IMG/VR virus record: IMGVR_UViG_3300023252_000179
Coordinates: 1-39,590 of that record
DNA length: 39,590 nt
Strand: one strand, 5' to 3'
From: a virus
Taxonomy: Duplodnaviria > Caudoviricetes
Part shown: piece after piece, positions 1,162 through 17,800 of the stretch
Position numbering within the stretch: the stretch's first letter is position 1
Layout: every line of letters starts with the position of its first letter
The notes under the pieces: generated by a model
Told to the model about the DNA's origin: nothing
The model's input: only the letters and a program-made list of their open reading frames with translations
Database searches by the model: none
Made by a program: the position numbers and the translations under genes

Positions 1162-1245
1162 TGTGATTTCCTCCGTTTTAGCACGAGCAGGTACATTGAA
1201 GAAAATCGTTTGCATCACTCCTTTCAAATGTAAATATTTTAAATG

Positions 1246-2627: not shown

Positions 2628-3407
2628 ATGAAACACTTGCAAGTTATTCACAAACAAGTTGTATTAACGAAAAAATTTGAAGTATACGGATCTTTAGATA
2701 ATCCGTTGTTTTTAGCTAAGGATGTAGCTAGTTGGATTGAACATAGTGACACATCCAAAATGATTCGTTCAGTAGACGAGGATGAGAAGGTAAAGAATAA
2801 TGTTCCTACCCTTGGTGGATTACAAGAATCCTGGTTCCTGACAGAAGATGGTTTATATGAAGTGTTAATGCAATCACGTAAACCTATAGCAAAACAATTT
2901 AAAAAACAGGTCAAAACCATTTTGAAAGACATCCGCCTTAAAGGTGGCTATATCGCTACAACCGAAGATGACGATGAAATGACAATCTTAGCGAAAGGAT
3001 TTCTAATAGCTCAAAAAACTATCGAAAGTAACAAAAGAAAAATTGTTGAACAGCAAATGTTAATTGAAGAACAAAAACCTAAAGTTCTATTCGCAGAAGC
3101 TATCCAAGCAAGTAAAACAACTATTCTTATTGGCGAATATGCCAAAATCTTAAAGCAAAACGGTGTAGACATAGGAAAAAAAAGACTTTTCGAATGGCTT
3201 AGAGATAATGGCTATTTAATCAAACGAAAAGGTTCTGACTATAACACACCGACTCAAAAGAGTATGGAGTTAGGTTTATTCGAAATAAAAGAAACACCAA
3301 TTCATCACACTAGTGGCGAAATCAGCATTTCAAGAACTTCAAAAATAACAGGTAAAGGGCAATCCTACTTTATTAATAAGTTTTTGACAAAGGAGGTTGC
3401 CATATGA
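2628..3407 (+). CDS. Phage antirepressor (BRO-N + KilAC/ANT)
   Basis: PLFLAKDVA...LTEDGLYEVLMQSRKPIAKQFK (BRO-N); KPKVLFA...ITGKGQSYFINKF (KilAC). Confidence 0.93.
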   Translation: MKHLQVIHKQVVLTKKFEVYGSLDNPLFLAKDVASWIEHSDTSKMIRSVDEDEKVKNNVPTLGGLQESWFLTEDGLYEVLMQSRKPIAKQFKKQVKTILKDIRLKGGYIATTEDDDEMTILAKGFLIAQKTIESNKRKIVEQQMLIEEQKPKVLFAEAIQASKTTILIGEYAKILKQNGVDIGKKRLFEWLRDNGYLIKRKGSDYNTPTQKSMELGLFEIKETPIHHTSGEISISRTSKITGKGQSYFINKFLTKEVAI

Positions 3408-3625
3408 TCCAAGAGCAAATCGAAGATGATGTAACACTTTTCTGGGATATAGAAGACATCATTCGAGAAACCCGCTATAAAAAAACATTTCTAGAAGCGA
3501 ATCTGTTATGTGATCCGAGAATTAAACGGTTTGAAAGAAAGCCAAAACCAAGAAGTAAAAGAATATGGCTTGCAGGACCAACAAAAGAAACTATTAAAAA
3601 TATCATAATGAACGAATGGAATTAA
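3404..3625 (+). CDS. Small DNA-binding protein, probable excisionase-like
   Basis: 73 aa, wHTH-like pattern (WDIEDI...LLCDPR...KRIW), typical position, AGGAGG RBS. Confidence 0.55.
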   Translation: MIQEQIEDDVTLFWDIEDIIRETRYKKTFLEANLLCDPRIKRFERKPKPRSKRIWLAGPTKETIKNIIMNEWN

Positions 3626-3731
3626 AAATAAAAAAGCACGAGCAGGTGCAATTAAAACAGGAGAGGCCAGGGCAAATGGCCTCGTCAAACTACCAATCTA
3701 GTAAGAGGTTGGGGCAAATCAACCTCTTATC
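3626..3731 (-). ncRNA. Predicted antisense sRNA with two UUUGCCC-loop hairpins
   Basis: Hairpins 3663-3683 and 3702-3729; minus-strand TGGTCT-17-TATTAT (3763-3735) puts +1 at the base of the first hairpin; ends in a short GCAC/GTGC stem plus U-tract; complementary to several lytic mRNAs. Confidence 0.65.
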
Positions 3732-3810
3732 TCAATAATAAAGCTAACTTAGCAAAGAGACCATGCACAGAGTGCATATATGCAATTTAAGCATAAAAGG
3801 AGAGGGCAAT

Positions 3811-4331: not shown

Positions 4332-4434
4332 AGCGTGGAGACATATGTCATTAAAGCAAAGGTTAATATATGTACATTTCTTTTGCGACAAGAAAGTATT
4401 AGAAAAGTTAAATGGCAATAAAAAAGCTGCTTAA
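4315..4434 (+). CDS. Small basic hypothetical protein (39 aa, MRIKPRAWRH...), not in the ORF track
   Basis: GAGGTG RBS, ATG 4315, TAA 4432-4434, overlaps the upstream gene end. Confidence 0.55.
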   Translation: MRIKPRAWRHMSLKQRLIYVHFFCDKKVLEKLNGNKKAA

Positions 4435-4538
4435 TCGCTGGAACGATTAAACAGCAGTGCGGTAATAGTCTACCCACATTATAACACAAAATCAGACGTT
4501 TGAAATATAAAGTGCTAAAGCACAAAGGGAGCCTAATT

Positions 4539-5375: not shown

Positions 5376-5458
5376 AAAGCCATCAAAAAAACCACTGCGC
5401 GAACAGTGGCCTTAACAAATAAATATTTACATCATCATACCACAGGAGGGCAAAAAAG

Positions 5459-7483
5459 ATGAAGAAAATTGAGTTGGTAGTTTTAAAATTACGTGATTTT
5501 AAGGGCATTAAATCACTTGATATTCAATTAGACGGTGGCAATGCTGAAATTTTTGGTGACAACGAAGCAGGTAAAACTACAACATTTGATGCGTTTTTAT
5601 GGCTGTTGTTCGATAAGGATAGCAACAATAAAAAGGACTTTGCTATCAAGTCTTTAAACAGTGACGGATCCGAACAACACAACTTGGAGCATACGGTTGA
5701 AGGTACATTTTTAATTGATGGTGTGTTTGTTACTTTAAAGAAAATCTACAGAGAGGTTTGGACAAAAAAACGAGGTGCTGCAAACAAGGAATTTACAGGG
5801 CATACCGTAGACTACGCGGTGAATGATGTACCGCTAAATAAGAAAGAGTACACAGCCAAAGTTGCTGAGATTGTAGATGAAGAAAAATTCAAGCTCCTTA
5901 CATCGCCTACTTATTTTAACGAACAATTGAAGTGGCAAGAAAAAAGACAGCTGTTACTTGAAATCTGCGGTGACATTTCAGATGAAGATGTGATTGCATC
6001 AAATCAATCACTGGCTAAATTAAATGAACTTCTTAACGGTAAGTCGATGGAAGATATGAAGAAAATCATTACTAGCCAGAAAAAACAAATTAATGATGAG
6101 CTTGAAATGATTCCAGTACGTATTGATGAAATTAATAAAATGATGCCAGAAACGACTGTAGATATTGAAAAGATGCGTCAACAAGTTGAGCAAATCGAAG
6201 CTGATATGGATGAACTGCAGCAACAGAAAATCCGAGTGAAAAACGGTTCATCTGTACTTGATAAACAACGGCAGTTACAAGTGTTAGAAATGCACCAAAG
6301 CGACTTAAAACGCACTATTGAAGCTGATAGCATGCAAGAAATCAATAAGCTTCAAGTGCGTGTTCAGGAAGCGCAAGGCAACGTACAAATTATTCAATCT
6401 GAAATTAAACATAAAGAGAACTACAAAAACTCTAAGGAAAATGAGTTGCAACAGCTATCTAATGACATCCAGCGTACTGAAAATCAGTTAATTGAGTTAC
6501 GTAAAGATTGGGCACACCACAATAATACTCAATTTGAATATGAGGATAAATGCGAGTGTCCTACTTGTAAACAAGAACTACCTCTTGAACAAGTTGAGGC
6601 TGCTCGAAATGAAGCACAAGCGCAGTTTAATGAGGAAAAGGCTCGTAGGTTATCAGCTGTAAATGAAAAGGGAAAAACTTTAGCGCAAGAAAAAGAGCAA
6701 AAAGTAAATCGCCACAACGAAGTAAATGAAGATATTTTTAGCGCAAATATGGAATTGGATGCTGCTAAGAACAAGCTAGAAACAGCACAGAAAGAGTTAA
6801 GTAAATATCAAGATAAGTTACAGCAAGCCCAAACATCGGTGCCTGATGTGACAGTGACTGATGAATATAAATCTATCACTCTACAAATTGAAACATTACA
6901 AGCTGAAATTAAGCAGTTAAACGAACATGCTCATGAAGCTGTTGCTGGTATCGACGAAGAAATAGAAAAATTAAAGTTCATTCGTAACGGCTGCAACAAT
7001 GCGTTATCACAACACGCAAACATTGAAGCGAGTAAGGAGCGAATCATTGAGCTGGAAGATCAACAGGTGAAACTTGCTCAAGAGTACGAAAAGCTAGAGC
7101 AAACTACATTCCTTATCGAAGAATTTATCCGAACAAAGGTAAACATGCTCACTGAACGCATTAACAGCAAGTTCAAATATGCACGATTTAAGCTGTTTGA
7201 CACGCAGGTAAATGGTGGATTAAACGAGGTATGCGAAACGACATTTAAAGGCGTACCATACGGCACTGGCCTTAACAATGCAGCGAAAATCAATGTCGGC
7301 TTAGACATTATCAATACACTATCAGCACATTATGGCATCCTAGCACCTATTTTCGTGGATAATGCCGAAGCTGTAACCAAGTTTATAGATGTGGAAACTC
7401 AACTTATTAGCTTAGTTGTTTCTGAGAAGGACAAGCAGTTACGTGTTGAATTAGAACCAATCGAATACAAGGAGGCAATTTAA
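5459..7483 (+). CDS. SbcC/Rad50-like AAA ATPase with coiled coil
   Basis: Walker A GDNEAGKTT, CPTC zinc hook, PIFVDNAE Walker B; precedes RecT. Confidence 0.88.
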   Translation: MKKIELVVLKLRDFKGIKSLDIQLDGGNAEIFGDNEAGKTTTFDAFLWLLFDKDSNNKKDFAIKSLNSDGSEQHNLEHTVEGTFLIDGVFVTLKKIYREVWTKKRGAANKEFTGHTVDYAVNDVPLNKKEYTAKVAEIVDEEKFKLLTSPTYFNEQLKWQEKRQLLLEICGDISDEDVIASNQSLAKLNELLNGKSMEDMKKIITSQKKQINDELEMIPVRIDEINKMMPETTVDIEKMRQQVEQIEADMDELQQQKIRVKNGSSVLDKQRQLQVLEMHQSDLKRTIEADSMQEINKLQVRVQEAQGNVQIIQSEIKHKENYKNSKENELQQLSNDIQRTENQLIELRKDWAHHNNTQFEYEDKCECPTCKQELPLEQVEAARNEAQAQFNEEKARRLSAVNEKGKTLAQEKEQKVNRHNEVNEDIFSANMELDAAKNKLETAQKELSKYQDKLQQAQTSVPDVTVTDEYKSITLQIETLQAEIKQLNEHAHEAVAGIDEEIEKLKFIRNGCNNALSQHANIEASKERIIELEDQQVKLAQEYEKLEQTTFLIEEFIRTKVNMLTERINSKFKYARFKLFDTQVNGGLNEVCETTFKGVPYGTGLNNAAKINVGLDIINTLSAHYGILAPIFVDNAEAVTKFIDVETQLISLVVSEKDKQLRVELEPIEYKEAI

Positions 7484-8373: not shown

Positions 8374-9074
8374 TGATCCAAATCAAAACTCTAGCAACAG
8401 GAAGTAAGGGGAATTGCTATCACATTACAGACGGTAGCACCCCTCTACTCCTAGAGTGTGGTATCAGCTTCAAACAGATACAGCAGGGCGTTAATTTTGA
8501 GACTTCAAGCCTTAGTGGTGTACTTATTACCCATGAACACAAAGACCACTGTAAAGGCGTGGAATCGGTGTTAAATCGTGGGTTAGATGTTTATATGTCA
8601 AAAGGTACTCAAGAGGCTTTGCAGCTACAGCATCACCGTATTAATACAGTCGAAAGTAAGAAGCAATTTAGGGTAGGCACATGGACGATATTGCCGTTTG
8701 ATGTACAGCACGATGTAAATGAGCCGTTAGGTTTTTTGCTACAGTCAGACAACGGTAGCAAGCTGTTATTCGCAACAGATACTTACTATGTGAAATATCG
8801 ATTTACAGGTCTAACTCACATCATGATTGAGTGTAATTACGACCAGCAAACATTGGACGACAACGTAGAAAGTGGCCGTATTCATCCAGCAATGCGAAAA
8901 CGAGTTATGAGGTCACATTTTAGCTTAGAAAACCTACTCGAATTTTTTAGGGCAAACGATTTGAGCAAGGTTGAGGAAATACATCTACTGCACTTATCAG
9001 ATGGCAATAGCAACGTAGATCGTATCTTTAAAGCAGTTGCAAGGGCAACAGGCAAGATGATTTTTATTCCGTAG
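8373..9074 (+). CDS. Metallo-beta-lactamase-fold nuclease/hydrolase
   Basis: GSKGN, THEHKDH, HD, ATDT, LLHLS motifs. Confidence 0.9.
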   Translation: MIQIKTLATGSKGNCYHITDGSTPLLLECGISFKQIQQGVNFETSSLSGVLITHEHKDHCKGVESVLNRGLDVYMSKGTQEALQLQHHRINTVESKKQFRVGTWTILPFDVQHDVNEPLGFLLQSDNGSKLLFATDTYYVKYRFTGLTHIMIECNYDQQTLDDNVESGRIHPAMRKRVMRSHFSLENLLEFFRANDLSKVEEIHLLHLSDGNSNVDRIFKAVARATGKMIFIP

Positions 9075-9089
9075 GAGGGGCAAGGGCAA

Positions 9090-9869
9090 ATGGCTGAAAG
9101 AAATTTCAAGGGCGTATGGATTCCGAAAGAAATATGGCTAGCAAAGGAATTAGGGTGGTCGGAAAAAGTACTACTGGTGGAAATTGATTCATTAGACGGT
9201 GAGAATGGTTGTTTTGCATCTAATGAGTATTTGGCCGACTTTTTCAAACTATCAAAAGACCGCATTTCCAAGATGATTTCTAGTTTGAGAGATAAGGGAT
9301 ATATAACGGTTCAGCTTGTATATAAAGAGGGCACAAAACAAATTGATAAACGAATTATTCGCATTGTACGGCAACCATACCCTATAGGCGAAAACACCGA
9401 TACCCCTAGTCGAAAACAACGAGAGGGTCTAGGTGAAAACACCGATACCCCTATAGGCGAAAACGCCGAGGATAATAATACAGTAATTAATAATACATCT
9501 AATAATACAAGAGACAAAGACAGACAGTCGTCTAGTCCACTCATAAATATGAATTTCGAACCTATTAAACAACTATTTGAAAGCAATGTTCGTATCGCAA
9601 CATTGGCTGATTGCAACAACATACATGAATCACTGGAATTTTACGAACCAGAACTTATTAAAGAAGCAATCCTAACTGGATCTAACAGTGCTCGAAGCTT
9701 TAAGTACATTCTTTCGATTTTAGATAACTGGCGTAAAGAGCTTGGTGTAAAAACATACGCAGATTGGCAGGTGAAGATAGATGCAAAAAACGGACGACAG
9801 AATGGCAGCAGTAATGGAGGAGCTTCAAGCACGAAGCCAACTGTATTCGGAAACTATTGTAGCGATTGA
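9090..9869 (+). CDS. Phage replication initiator (N-terminal wHTH, DnaD-like C-terminus)
   Basis: CFASNEYLA wHTH; FKYILSILDNW DnaD-like motif; internal iterons. Confidence 0.88.
   Translation: MAERNFKGVWIPKEIWLAKELGWSEKVLLVEIDSLDGENGCFASNEYLADFFKLSKDRISKMISSLRDKGYITVQLVYKEGTKQIDKRIIRIVRQPYPIGENTDTPSRKQREGLGENTDTPIGENAEDNNTVINNTSNNTRDKDRQSSSPLINMNFEPIKQLFESNVRIATLADCNNIHESLEFYEPELIKEAILTGSNSARSFKYILSILDNWRKELGVKTYADWQVKIDAKNGRQNGSSNGGASSTKPTVFGNYCSD
9385..9510 (+). repeat. Probable replication origin: four 16-bp iterons plus AT-rich tract
   Basis: TAGKYGAAAACRMCGA at 9385, 9407, 9430 and 9454 (22-24 bp period), followed by AT-rich 9471-9510. Confidence 0.8.
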
Positions 9870-11638: not shown

Positions 11639-12147
11639 TAAACCGAGTTGTGATAGTTGGCCGACTTACTAAAGATCCTGAGCTTCGATATACACCAAAC
11701 GGAATTGCATCATGTCGTTTCACAGTTGCAGTCAACCGTACATTTAAAGGACAGAACGGTGAACAGGAAGCCGACTTCATAAATTGCCAGGCATGGCGCA
11801 AACAAGCCGAGAATCTAGCCAACTTCATGAAGAAAGGTAATTTAATAGGTTTGGAAGGGCGAATCCAAACAGGCAGCTATGAGGGGCAAGATGGCAAGCG
11901 AGTTTTTACTACTGACGTTGTAGCAGATAGCATTCAGTTTTTAGAACAGCGATCAAACAGCACAGGAGGCGCACAGAACACACCAAACTATCAATCTAGT
12001 ACAAATACAGGTGGAACGAATCAAACGCCACCACAGGGCAATTATGGCGGTAATAATAACCAGCCAAGTTATACGAGAGTGGATGAAGATCCATTTGCTA
12101 ATAGTAAGGGGCCGATTGAGGTTAGTGAGGACGATTTACCATTTTGA
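11635..12147 (+). CDS. ssb: Single-stranded DNA-binding protein
   Basis: [20 protein letters not shown] and DDLPF tail. Confidence 0.97.
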
Positions 12148-13331: not shown

Positions 13332-13407
13332 CTAAATACACGCTGCTGGTAGAACAGCATTAGATTTTTTTATCAGCAGATGAAAAAGAGTGCTAATAGG
13401 AGGCAAC

Positions 13408-14038: not shown

Positions 14039-14093
14039 GTATTTGAAAGTTATTGTTCAGTAGCAATAAAAAAAGCGTTGCAATAAAGCAACG

Positions 14094-14282
14094 CTAGGTT
14101 TGTTTAATCTTAGAGAATTTTACAACACTAAACACAAAGCCTATCAATCCGCTAATAAAGAAAATATATGCTACTGGTATTGACATTGCTTCTAAGTTAT
14201 TTGTAAAGATTCTATATGCTCCTACTGAACATAATGCCAAACCACTTACCGAGCTAAGCAATGTTCTATTCTTTTCAGTCAA
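14094..14282 (-). CDS. Small two-helix membrane protein (moron)
   Basis: GGAGGTG RBS, TTG start, two hydrophobic segments, own terminator at 14068-14096. Confidence 0.7.
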   Translation of the reverse strand: MTEKNRTLLSSVSGLALCSVGAYRIFTNNLEAMSIPVAYIFFISGLIGFVFSVVKFSKIKQT

Positions 14283-14382
14283 AAAACCACCTCCAAATAT
14301 TGGTATATAAAATATGTTAACACAACTTTTATTTTTAGTTAACTAATATTTGAAGGTTTTAATGTCATGAAAACAAAAAAGC

Positions 14383-14414
14383 TTACTGAACAATATGAAG
14401 ATATTGTTCAGTAA
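14383..14414. repeat. 13-6-13 palindrome with half-site copies at 14051-14062 and 15210-15219
   Basis: TTACTGAACAATA-TGAAGA-TATTGTTCAGTAA. Confidence 0.8.
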
Positions 14415-14522
14415 ATGTAGCGTGCATAAATATGAAAAGAAAAAGGAGTAATTCCAACAAGGTTAATCACTCCTACAAAACTATTTTTTTGAAGTTTTAA
14501 TACAAAGAGAGTCTTTATATCT

Positions 14523-15068
14523 CTATACAATCGGACTTAACAATTTAAGGATAATAGAAGCATTTACGTTAGTTTGTGTGCCTCCTGCTAAAGTTTGAAG
14601 GATTACTGCTGCAGCGGAGGAATGATTTCTAAGTGTAAGTATACCGCCAGACGGTATAGCAATTATTGCCTGACCATTGTTTTGTTGAGTACCAGCACCT
14701 GAACCATAAACTGTTTCTGGAATCGGTACACCATTTAAAAATAATGTGAATTGGTTAGGTTCAACACCTGAGACGCTGAAAGTAACCTCGTAGATTCCTG
14801 GTCTTGTAACAAAAATTTCAGAGGTTCCAGGAACATGCGTAATTCCCGGAGTAACTATACCTGTTGAATCAAAAATAATATCTGCTTCTACAGCTACAGT
14901 TTCAGGACCTAGATTATATATATATCCATATTCGCAAAGACCACTACAAGGTGTTGGTATTATAGGAGGAATAGCGCCAGTAATTCCACAGAGATCAACA
15001 GCTCTGAAGGGTCCCGATTGGCTTCCGCATAAGCAAGAACGTTTATTACAGTTACTACAGTTATCCAT
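14523..15068 (-). CDS. BclA C-terminal-domain-like (exosporium/spore surface) protein without collagen repeats (moron)
   Basis: GIYEVTFSVSGVEPNQFTLFLNG...YGSGAGTQQNNGQAII...NVNASI; Cys-rich N-terminus; GGAGGTG RBS. Confidence 0.75.
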   Translation of the reverse strand: MDNCSNCNKRSCLCGSQSGPFRAVDLCGITGAIPPIIPTPCSGLCEYGYIYNLGPETVAVEADIIFDSTGIVTPGITHVPGTSEIFVTRPGIYEVTFSVSGVEPNQFTLFLNGVPIPETVYGSGAGTQQNNGQAIIAIPSGGILTLRNHSSAAAVILQTLAGGTQTNVNASIILKLLSPIV

Positions 15069-15464
15069 TTTTTCACCTCCATTTGTAGTATTTTATTCGC
15101 TTGAAATATCAAGTAGAGGGCCATTGGCTACAAACTAGTAATTTTGTTTATTTTAATATTGATGTTTTAAAGAAAATTGGTAGCATTGTTAAACCATTTT
15201 AAATAAAGGTTACTGAACATTTGAGGAAATAAATTAAAAAAGGATCACTGAGCTGTGACCCAAAATTGAGGGAGGTAGTGACTGTCAACTAGCGCCACAA
15301 CCAAATAAGTGCGTGCGATACACTCAATGTTAAAATGTGCAGATTTAAGTTACCTATACATTAAAAAAGCCGCAGCGTTTGCAGACGCTACAGCTCGAAT
15401 TGGTTTATGCCCTTTTAAGACAATCTGGTACATGTATTATAACACACTTAGGAGGGCAAACCTA

Positions 15465-15902
15465 ATGGGCAAACAAGGGCAAATTAAAGTTACGAAAGAG
15501 AATTTACTTCAGTGGATTGAGAATTATCGTTGGATGGTTGAAACAATTGAGGAAGCAAGACAGCCGGTAGCTAAGGTCAATAACAACAGTTACATTGGGG
15601 CTAAAACAGCTATGTATGGTATTGAGTCAACATTACCAAAGGCTAGTGGAGGTACAAGTGATCCTGTGTTTACAGAGGTACAACGTCGAGTATATTCTCT
15701 AAATTATCGCATTAAAGAATACGAGGAAAAGATTGCGGAAGTGCAAAACCGCATTCCGTTTGTAGAAGGCGATAGAGAGGTAGAAGTCCTTCATAGATTG
15801 CTAGATGGGGATAGCATGCGTGCTATTGGTAAGCATATGAGATTATCTAGCACGACAATTTTTAGAGTAAGAAATAATATTTTGAGCCAGATGATTAAGT
15901 AG
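15465..15902 (+). CDS. Late transcription activator (ArpU/RinA-like, sigma70 region-4-type HTH)
   Basis: C-terminal HTH (LDGDSMRAIGKHMRLSSTTI); last early gene; AGGAGG RBS before ATG 15465. Confidence 0.8.
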   Translation: MGKQGQIKVTKENLLQWIENYRWMVETIEEARQPVAKVNNNSYIGAKTAMYGIESTLPKASGGTSDPVFTEVQRRVYSLNYRIKEYEEKIAEVQNRIPFVEGDREVEVLHRLLDGDSMRAIGKHMRLSSTTIFRVRNNILSQMIK

Positions 15903-16027: not shown

Positions 16028-16128
16028 TAGACAATAGATTTTAAAACATTTATACTTAACTAAGTTAACTTTCATATATCGTTTACATTATTTTTTTTGC
16101 TCAATTAGTTAACTAACTTAACTAATTG
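16028..16128 (+). promoter_or_regulatory. sigA promoter and MarR operator palindromes
   Basis: TAGACA-17-TATACT (16028-16056); TTAACTAAGTTAA (16056-16068); CAATTAGTTAA-N5-TTAACTAATTG (16102-16128). Confidence 0.75.
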
Positions 16129-16151: not shown

Positions 16152-16574
16152 TTGAAACAAAATCCTGATTTCTTTAATGCGTATAGTTTAGTGCATCGTC
16201 CTTTAACGAATCATACAAATCGTATTTTAGAGAAACATGAATTGTCGAGCTCTTATTGGCGTGTACTACGTATTTTAGAAAAAGCTGAGTCTAAAAACTT
16301 TGGAGACATTACAAATGCATTAATGATAGAAAAACCAGCCTTAACTAAAATCGTTAAAAAGCTTTCAACAATGGGGATTGTAGAAATTCAACGTGGACAA
16401 GATAAACGTGAAAAAATCGTAATGTTAACTGAATTTGGTAAGAAAAAAATTGATGCTATTCGTAGCGAACTTAATCCGTTTTTAGAGGCTGCAATCGAAG
16501 GTTTAAGTCAGGAACAATTAAATAGTGCGATTGAAGTACTAGAAATCATTAAAAAAAATATTACGAAATACTAA
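16152..16574 (+). CDS. MarR-family regulator
   Basis: IEKPALTKIVKKL...DKREKIVMLTEFG winged helix. Confidence 0.9.
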   Translation: MKQNPDFFNAYSLVHRPLTNHTNRILEKHELSSSYWRVLRILEKAESKNFGDITNALMIEKPALTKIVKKLSTMGIVEIQRGQDKREKIVMLTEFGKKKIDAIRSELNPFLEAAIEGLSQEQLNSAIEVLEIIKKNITKY

Positions 16575-16582
16575 GGTGAATT

Positions 16583-17800
16583 ATGGAAAAAATGAAAGAA
16601 AAATTATGGACGAAGGAATTTGTCACATTATCAGTTATCAATTTTGTTACTACAATCGTCTTCTTTTTATTAATGGTGACGATCGCAAAATATGCAGTTA
16701 GTGAATTCAATGTTTCGACGAGTACAGCAGGCTTGGCTTCAAGTATCTTCATTATTGGTTCACTGTTTGGACGTTTAGGTGGAGGTCGAATTATCGGTCA
16801 ATTGGGCAGTAAAAAGACATTATTCTATGGCTTAATTGGCTTTTTAATTACAACGTTACTTTACTTTGCAATATTTAATATTACTTTATTATTAATTTAC
16901 CGTTTATTACAAGGTGTAGCTGTTGGTTTAGTTGGTACTGCAATAGGTACAATTATTGCGCAAATTTTACCAGCCAATCGTCGAGGGGAAGGGATTGGTT
17001 ACTTCAGCTTAAGTGCTATTTTAGCTGCAGCTGTTGGACCATATATTGGTCTTTTACTAATGAAAAACTTTGATGGTTTTAATGTAATCTTTATTTTTAA
17101 TGCCATTTTAGCAGTTGTTGTTTTACTGATGTTCTTCGTAATAAAATTCCCAGAAAGTTTAACAAAACCAGTTCAATCTACTTCAACAACACAAGTACAA
17201 AATACTGGTATCTTATCTAAATTTATTGAGAGACGTGCAGTGCCAATTTCACTTGTTGCACTATTTGTTGGATTAGCCTATTCAGGTGTACTTTCATTTA
17301 TGTCGTTTTATACCGTTGAAATTGACTTAGAAAAAGTTGGTGGCTATTTCTTCTTAATTTACGCAATTGTTGTTATTCTAACACGCCCTGTCACTGGTAA
17401 GCTATTAGACGCGCGAGGCGCAAACATAATTATTTATCCATGCTTAATTATTTTTGCAATCGGTATGTATTTGTTTAGCTCTGCTACTACTTCAATTATT
17501 TTCATTATCGCTGCTATCTTCATCGGTATTGGTTACGGTAACTTTACTTCAGTAGCACAAGCCGTAGCTGTAAAAGAAACACCACGTGAAAGAATGGGCT
17601 TAGCTACTTCAACGTTCTTTATTTTTTATGATATTGGATTAGGCTTTGGTCCCTTTATTTTAGGGAAGCTTATCCCTTCAATGGGTTATCGCTCTATTTT
17701 TGAGTGGATGGTGGTAGTACTTGTAGTTTCATTCGTTTTATATTACTTTTTACACGGAAAAAAGGAATCTAATTCTCGAAAAATACTTACAAATAATTAA
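16583..17800 (+). CDS. MFS efflux transporter
   Basis: About 12 TM segments, motif A-like GRIIGQLGSKK, RRGEGIGYF; substrate unknown. Confidence 0.93.
   Translation: MEKMKEKLWTKEFVTLSVINFVTTIVFFLLMVTIAKYAVSEFNVSTSTAGLASSIFIIGSLFGRLGGGRIIGQLGSKKTLFYGLIGFLITTLLYFAIFNITLLLIYRLLQGVAVGLVGTAIGTIIAQILPANRRGEGIGYFSLSAILAAAVGPYIGLLLMKNFDGFNVIFIFNAILAVVVLLMFFVIKFPESLTKPVQSTSTTQVQNTGILSKFIERRAVPISLVALFVGLAYSGVLSFMSFYTVEIDLEKVGGYFFLIYAIVVILTRPVTGKLLDARGANIIIYPCLIIFAIGMYLFSSATTSIIFIIAAIFIGIGYGNFTSVAQAVAVKETPRERMGLATSTFFIFYDIGLGFGPFILGKLIPSMGYRSIFEWMVVVLVVSFVLYYFLHGKKESNSRKILTNN

What the first reader, a model, noticed from the sequence alone, without database searches (positions are those of the whole stretch)
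15449..15483. GGGCAAA motif marks translation starts of key lytic genes, three copies at the late activator
Seen: GGGCAAA at 15454, 15467 and 15477 brackets the SD and ATG of the late activator (codons MGKQGQ). It also lies at the RBS of the Rad50-like ATPase (5448) and the replication initiator (9084, plus GGGCAAG at 9078), with GGGCAAT at the XRE gene (3804). Shorter GGAGGCAA versions lie at the recT (7471), ssb (11623) and DUF1064 (13399) RBSs. By eye I found only two exact plus-strand copies inside genes away from a start (4242, 23431). Inference: this is the target regulon of the 3626-3731 RNA. Alternatively a phage RNA-binding protein binds GGGCAAA and the plus-strand hairpins are a CsrB-like decoy.
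Basis: partly seen in the sequence, partly recalled or inferred. Interest (0 to 1): 0.82.

Follow-up and report, generated by a model that had tools for sequence, protein, structure and literature searches.

The report
Prophage antisense RNA locks lytic genes
Many Lysinibacillus prophages carry a conserved ~100-base hairpin cassette whose reverse strand is complementary to the translation start of their own replication-initiator gene and to GGGCAAA copies at the likely late-gene activator, so it likely encodes an undescribed antisense RNA predicted to keep the dormant phage from replicating.

Summary
The motif is real: 12 GGGCAAA copies, all plus strand, against 4.7 expected; five, not two, lie inside genes. 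It is the seed of longer matches to the cassette at 3626-3729. Hairpin B plus flank is a 20/23 copy of the initiator start; 43 of 48 cassette prophages keep a 19-21/23 match across unrelated initiator families, and a diverged phage changes both together. The third activator copy is the only invariant four-fold site of 46. A minus-strand -10 box sits before the cassette in 50 of 52 flanks. The linker pairs 18 bp inside ssb, not at its RBS; recT, ssb and XRE RBS copies are not conserved. Unexpectedly, the terminal hairpin co-varies with a copy in the integrase leader, which the plus strand would pair with. Best reading (0.7): a trans-acting antisense RNA blocks initiator and activator translation, favouring lysogeny. 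No Rfam match. Expression and strand are unproven: RNA runs gave contigs only.

The parts
3626..3729 (-). Predicted antisense RNA: hairpin A (3702-3729), linker (3685-3703), hairpin B (3663-3683), hairpin 3 (3636-3649) with U tract (3626-3635); UUUGCCC loops
   Evidence: fold z -3.97; 47 viral contigs share hairpin B exactly; compensatory AU/UA pair in hairpin A; no Rfam hit
3735..3740 (-). Predicted -10 box (TATTAT); no recognisable -35
   Evidence: TAnnnT 8-9 nt before the hairpin A stem in 50 of 52 unique flanks
3763..3794 (.). Two ATGCA-N5-TGCAT palindromes between the RNA promoter and the XRE gene; likely operators
   Evidence: similar pairs seen in relatives; binding untested
3658..3680 (+). 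Sense copy of the initiator translation start (hairpin B plus flank)
   Evidence: 20/23 identical to 9072-9094
9072..9094 (+). Main predicted target: SD and start of the DnaD-type replication initiator (ATG 9090)
   Evidence: duplex -45.1 vs best of 322 host starts -30.5; ddG -27.1; DnaB_2/DnaD domains
15449..15483 (+). Three GGGCAAA copies at the likely late activator: SD (15454), codons 1-3 (15467), codons 4-6 (15477)
   Evidence: SD copy in 24 of 26, middle copy in 8 of 26, Gly5 codon GGG in 25 of 25 and the only invariant four-fold site of 46
15402..15419 (+). Anti-SD strand that pairs with 15447-15462 in cis
   Evidence: fold; SD unpaired probability 0.02; visible in most of 21 relatives
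15362..15444 (-). Second minus-strand unit: extended -10 (15444-15436), ~68-nt RNA covering the anti-SD, terminator 15396-15367
   Evidence: terminator; TGnTAnn(A/C)T in 38 of 39 unique leader flanks; fold
11983..12001 (+). Linker-complementary site inside ssb
   Evidence: 18-bp duplex, -25.5; ddG -27.2; present in most relatives reaching ssb; the 2 invariant four-fold sites of 38 lie in or beside it
5443..5461 (+). GGAGGGCAAA at the SbcC/Rad50-like ATPase start; secondary seed-only site
   Evidence: 13 of 13 unique homologues; duplex energy unremarkable
1181..1194 (-). Copy of hairpin 3 in the integrase leader, 6 nt before the SD (1174-1170; likely start ATG 1161), inside a stem that occludes the SD
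   Evidence: 13 of 19 third-hairpin prophages have such a copy; cognate identity 15.1/17 vs 11.3 non-cognate over 15 loci; window fold and cofold
3404..3625 (+). 73-aa gene ending at hairpin 3; DUF771-like, excisionase-like by position (inferred)
   Evidence: atlas look-alike DUF771 at 0.90, a lead only; no Pfam or NCBIfam hit

Best explanation
The cassette at 3626-3729 likely makes a ~100-nt minus-strand RNA that is predicted to base-pair in trans with the phage's own lytic mRNAs and block their translation, which would hold the prophage dormant. Shown by sequence: hairpin B with its 3' flank is complementary over 20 of 23 nt to the SD and start of the replication initiator; both loops are complementary to GGGCAAA at the activator, SbcC-like and resolvase starts; the linker is complementary over 18 bp to a site inside ssb. 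Inferred: transcription from the -10 box at 3740-3735; loop-first pairing that unzips hairpin B on the initiator start; weaker loop-only pairing at secondary starts; the in-codon activator copy staying available while the SD copy is paired in cis; a net effect of suppressing replication and late genes after leaky early transcription.
For: Initiator match: 19-21/23 in 43 of 48 cassette prophages, in front of at least five protein families under 45% identical (Pfam for examples). Homologues without a cassette have unrelated starts: 56 of 59 loci of the window's family and the non-Lysinibacillus-type loci of a second family. Covariation: L285 has three new stems with GGGCAA loops, and its initiator start is shortened in step. 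In one initiator family the motif is at or just after the start in 3 of 3 prophages with hairpin B and 0 of 3 without. Differences from the cassette at 17 unique initiator sites: 18 G-U-compatible for a minus-strand RNA vs 1 incompatible transition. Strongest duplex in the window and beyond all 322 host starts. Gly5 GGG invariance. -10 box in 50 of 52 flanks with changing downstream genes.
Against: No direct RNA evidence: 8 runs laid were contigs only, strand unknown; two begin inside the cassette, two run past the predicted start. No -35 box; a terminator-like third hairpin in only 19 of 48. Five of 48 lacked the initiator match, three with a broken seed despite an intact cassette (L050, L053, L076). 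The initiator motif persists in prophages or remnants with no detected cassette (G002, G004, G071, G178:C12, one in G184). A-to-G differences also improve the SD, and 19 C-to-G mismatches are not wobble. ssb sites show no wobble bias (9 vs 6). Stem G-U asymmetry is weak. Activator, SbcC and XRE duplexes are not above the host background; activator ddG only -7.0.
Confidence: 0.7

Rival explanations
1. A phage or host RNA-binding protein recognises GGGCAAA, and the plus-strand hairpins in the early mRNA are decoys or antitermination signals.
For: Plus strand folds as well or better (-37.2, z -5.7). L285 keeps loops while replacing stems. Seed-only sites at SbcC and resolvase need no long pairing.
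Against: Does not explain the 20-nt match including flank, the 18-bp linker match in ssb, or the conserved minus-strand -10 box. Initiator sites usually break the hairpin (C-to-G). Loops lack the GGA of Csr decoys (recalled). No RNA-binding family among the proteins scanned.
Confidence: 0.1
2. The activator copies reflect only a cis switch (anti-SD opened by the second minus-strand RNA), and the other RBS copies are SD composition inherited by descent.
For: SD copy is fully paired in cis and persists where no cassette was found. recT, ssb and XRE copies are not conserved.
Against: Cannot account for the initiator match across unrelated families, its covariation in L285, or GGG invariance at codon 5. 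GGGCAA occurs at 1 of 322 host starts. Probably true for the SD copy alone.
Confidence: 0.1
3. The matches are DNA-level direct repeats: operators for a phage protein, or recombination points between modules.
For: Initiator, ssb and integrase-leader copies are all direct repeats of cassette parts on one strand; genes change next to the cassette.
Against: Compensated stems, strict SD register and wobble-biased differences point to RNA. Deletion between the repeats would remove the immunity or recombination modules. A DNA operator remains possible for hairpin 3 and the integrase leader.
Confidence: 0.08

Closest known systems
c4 antisense RNA of phages P1/P7 (Rfam RF01695)
   Same: Small phage RNA with complementary sequences in loops that pairs in trans around a ribosome binding site and supports immunity (PMC12197685, section 9 read).
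   Different: c4 targets antirepressor mRNA in Proteobacteria. Here the ant start is unremarkable, the main match is the replication initiator, several mRNAs are matched, and there is no Rfam match.
CI RNA of satellite phage P4
   Same: RNA-based silencing of the phage's replication genes in the lysogen (PMC4825925, passage read).
   Different: CI is processed from the same transcript as seqA/seqC and causes termination. This RNA would come from the opposite strand and matches sites 2-12 kb away at translation starts.
Lambda aQ and OOP, P22 sar
   Same: Antisense control of a late regulator or switch gene (PMC12197685, Table 1 and passages).
   Different: aQ and OOP are listed as cis and each of the three has one target. 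The second minus-strand unit here covers the anti-SD, not the SD.
C-rich-loop sRNAs of Firmicutes (RsaE, RNAIII, FsrA)
   Same: C-rich loops pairing with SD regions of several mRNAs (PMC4152353, passages).
   Different: Chromosomal, aimed at host genes, generic UCCC. Here the seed includes a phage-specific spacer (UUUGCCC) rare at host starts.
Listeria phi10403S lasRNA and rliG
   Same: Prophage non-coding RNAs expressed in lysogeny in a similarly organised Firmicutes phage (PMC7397523, passages).
   Different: Function stated as unknown, no targets given; no sequence relation tested here beyond the Rfam scan.

Membership tests
c4 antisense RNA | Match to the Rfam covariance model | tested here: not met
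c4 antisense RNA | Target is antirepressor mRNA | tested here: not met
   ant start duplex -24.7, mid-range; no motif
c4 antisense RNA | Loop-exposed sequences complementary to an RBS region in trans | tested here: met
   by sequence and folding only
P4 CI RNA | Processed from the same transcript as its flanking targets | tested here: not met
   targets are direct repeats of the plus strand, so pairing needs the opposite strand
P4 CI RNA | Causes premature transcription termination | not testable with these tools
   needs transcript mapping
Cis-antisense phage RNAs (aQ, OOP) | Overlaps its target gene on the opposite strand | tested here: not met
   cassette is 5.4 kb from the initiator and 11.8 kb from the activator; met only by the second unit, over the activator leader
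C-rich-loop trans sRNAs (RsaE type) | C-rich loops complementary to SD regions of several mRNAs | tested here: met
   (prediction)
C-rich-loop trans sRNAs (RsaE type) | Homology to a curated family | tested here: not met
CsrB-like decoy | Many GGA-containing loops (feature recalled) | tested here: not met
   two or three loops, GGGCAAA, no GGA in the two main loops
CsrB-like decoy | Binds a translational repressor protein | not testable with these tools
   needs a pull-down
Any expressed sRNA | Discrete transcript of defined strand and ends | tested here: inconclusive
   contigs only

The most novel reading that the evidence does not exclude
One ~100-bp cassette is a two-sided RNA switch. Its minus strand silences initiator, ssb and late activator. 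Its plus strand, the 3' end of the excisionase-like mRNA, pairs with and opens the SD-occluded integrase leader, so Int is made only with Xis, and each strand neutralises the other. Because the minus-strand seeds are nearly invariant among prophages with different flanking genes, it would also act across co-resident and incoming phages as a repressor-independent immunity layer.
Probability: 0.3. Interest if true: 0.88.

Novelty: new variant of a known kind. Interest (0 to 1): 0.78.

Why it matters
Known phage antisense RNAs are mostly proteobacterial and single-target. This would be a Firmicutes prophage RNA assembled from copies of its own targets, reaching replication, late activation and possibly excision, with target sites kept while the initiator gene is swapped. 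It gives a testable function for the class of unexplained lysogen-expressed prophage RNAs and predicts cross-talk in polylysogens (3 cassette matches in G001, 5 in G182).

Tried and rejected
Rfam: no gathering-level hit in the window or three relatives; only chance-level matches at E 0.65-9.8. GenBank phages: no cassette match, only short ant hits. Peptide reading of the plus-strand mini-ORF starting in hairpin B rejected: the frame changes among relatives. Loop variants of hairpin 3 as wobble evidence for GGGCA targets dropped once they proved to co-vary with the integrase leader. Second minus-strand RNA as a sponge of the main RNA (ddG -8.5) and plus-strand cassette opening the activator anti-SD (duplex -15.4) are weak. 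RNA runs X1, X7, X9, X10 cover much of the prophage and may contain DNA; X13, X14, X15, X17 hold short pieces; none tells strand or level. A de novo scan for hairpin arrays with other loop words in the loci L160-L237 and L281-L383 gave only GGGCA systems and GC-rich noise. The L285-type pattern scan added no second example among 39 loci by that scan. Outside the genus: the model found no convincing hit among 151 family genomes (G065 looks non-phage), and the initiator pattern none among 370 order genomes beyond the 17 genus ones. Integrase-leader SD occlusion was computed for the window only; across relatives it is read by eye and remains open.

Full report
Setting. The window is a temperate myovirus-like phage: integrase, ImmA-like protease, repressor, Cro-like, antirepressor, recombination and replication genes, terminase, head and contractile tail. 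Close activator homologues lie in Lysinibacillus genomes (8 loci). The gene at 15465-15902 is called the late activator by position and weak similarity (phrog_36 E 1.4e-7; GerE/sigma70_r4/DUF1492 look-alikes); NCBIfam gave only weak response-regulator and sigma-factor matches.

Observation. All quoted positions are correct. There are 12 GGGCAAA copies, all plus strand, against 4.68 expected. Two are cassette loops, five are at starts and five are inside genes (4242, 8026, 8950, 23431, 26925). With a simple SD-based gene caller, GGGCAA lay in the 20 nt before 1 of 322 host starts (400 kb of G005), 57 of 617 unique early starts downstream of the cassette, 13 of 239 before the activator and 5 of 177 after it; in the window 4 of 17 early and 0 of 29 late. 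These phages are related, so counts are not independent. The shorter recT and ssb versions and the XRE copy fail the conservation test, though another XRE family at the same position has the motif in 7 of 23.

The cassette. Hairpin B occurs exactly in 47 viral contigs, always with the linker and hairpin A, between changing upstream and downstream genes. A model from 23 copies matched 23 of 49 genus genomes at E<=0.05, 18 of them below 1e-8. Hairpin A has one compensated pair (AU 13, UA 9 of 23); other pairs hardly vary and say little. A TAnnnT hexamer lies 8-9 nt before hairpin A on the minus strand in 50 of 52 unique flanks of several unrelated types, with no -35.

The initiator is the main match. 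Window 3658-3680 equals 9072-9094 at 20 of 23 positions. In 43 of 48 cassette prophages (47 relatives plus the window) the best copy is 19-21/23 and ends in an ATG. By the following codons it is an initiator in 41; in L048 and L073 it is another ORF, with a second 20/23 site. The proteins fall in at least five families; examples carry DnaB_2 or Phage_rep_org_N. Misses: L033, L045, L050, L053, L076; the last three have a changed seed. Of 59 N-terminal homologues of the window's initiator examined (of 80 fetched), the 3 with a cassette have the match and 56 do not. The duplex is -45.1 kcal/mol against a best host start of -30.5. L285 has three hairpins with new stems and GGGCAA loops, and its initiator start is shortened in step; this is one event. 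In the MES/MEG initiator family the motif is present with hairpin B (L145 in codons 2-4, L148, L157) and absent without it (L146, L149, L150). Against: the motif persists in several cassette-less prophages or remnants, which may be decay, contig edges or reliance on a co-resident phage.

The three activator copies. Among 26 unique homologues the SD copy is in 24, the middle copy in 8, and Gly5 is GGG in 25 of 25, the only invariant four-fold site of 46 (mean top frequency 0.66). The SD copy has a second explanation: an upstream anti-SD pairs it, and a minus-strand extended -10 (38 of 39 flanks) and terminator define a ~68-nt RNA over that anti-SD, which would free the SD (inferred). The in-codon copy stays mostly unpaired (0.67) and is the best candidate for loop contact, but the predicted binding is weak (ddG -7.0).

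ssb. The linker matches 11983-12001 as an 18-bp duplex (ddG -27.2), present in most relatives that reach ssb, with raised synonymous conservation nearby but no wobble bias. It may be a decay site or a sponge.

Integrase leader. 19 of 48 prophages have a third hairpin after the DUF771-like gene; 13 have a copy elsewhere in the fetched DNA, lying shortly before the integrase SD where the gene could be located. Six sequence types match in cis (15.1 vs 11.3 of 17; cognate best or joint best in 9 of 15 selected loci); co-inheritance of modules contributes. The integrase mRNA has the minus-strand version, so only the plus strand can pair with it. In the window the leader folds with the SD occluded, and the cofold with plus-strand hairpin 3 (16 bp, ddG -14.1) loses that stem. 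By eye L033, L043, L050 and L060 have similar occluding stems; this was not computed.

Expression. 23 runs hold part of a relative's cassette, 10 on record as RNA. The 8 laid were contigs: X13 and X17 begin inside the cassette and continue in the predicted direction, X14 and X15 run past the predicted start, and four cover much of the prophage. This is inconclusive.

Mechanism and comparison. Most likely (0.7) a trans-acting antisense RNA blocks initiator translation, with weaker loop contacts at the activator, SbcC-like and resolvase starts. It works like P1 c4 or P4 CI RNA but is not a member of either. Rivals: protein decoy 0.1, cis switch plus descent 0.1, DNA repeats 0.08.

Literature. 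Ten searches (listings and abstract starts) showed no description of this element; the library lacks most subscription papers. Read: PMC12197685 (passages, sections 9 and 15), and passages of PMC7397523, PMC2965217, PMC2864571, PMC4152353, PMC4825925. No supplements were opened; the list of 38 function-unknown sRNAs in PMC12197685 and motif tables outside Rfam could bear on novelty. Csr loop features and lambda CII logic are recalled. An earlier scan note on an Agrobacterium prophage describes a similar idea; it is unchecked and not evidence.

Verdict. Real, conserved and apparently undescribed; a new variant of phage antisense immunity. Interest 0.78, limited by the lack of any transcript evidence.

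Noticed in passing
window 4420-4485 (minus strand): A third short minus-strand unit with a strong terminator (z -5.67) and a TGnTATAAT-like box, upstream of the 4539 gene; no target sought.
   Followed up: partly
window 14074-14095, 14382-14415, 15242-15261, 13340-13360: Further minus-strand terminator-like hairpins in the early region.
   Followed up: no
window 3741-3750 and relatives: Palindrome AAGTTAACTT or a variant next to the cassette promoter in most relatives regardless of the downstream XRE type; exact copy at 16062 (not above chance in the window).
   Followed up: partly
L033, L040-L042, L049, L060-L063, L065, L078 (immunity region): A conserved non-coding-looking stretch on the lytic strand containing a 14/17 match to the minus-strand linker, just before an SD; absent from the window; no Rfam hit in L033 or L063.
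   Followed up: partly
relatives L032, L039, L047 and others: Unrelated upstream genes often end in L/P-R-A with GGGCA or GAGCA just before the cassette; some share 9-12 nt with their integrase leader.
   Followed up: partly
G001:C59 (L117, L144): Degenerate cassette but intact initiator site, in a genome with two intact cassettes: a candidate for control in trans.
   Followed up: no
window 16152-17800: MarR regulator plus MFS transporter between the activator and terminase.
   Followed up: no
window 14523-15068 (minus strand): BclA C-terminal-like domain gene inserted against the early operon.
   Followed up: no
window 1161: The integrase start is more likely ATG 1161 with SD 1174-1170 than TTG 1227.
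   Followed up: partly
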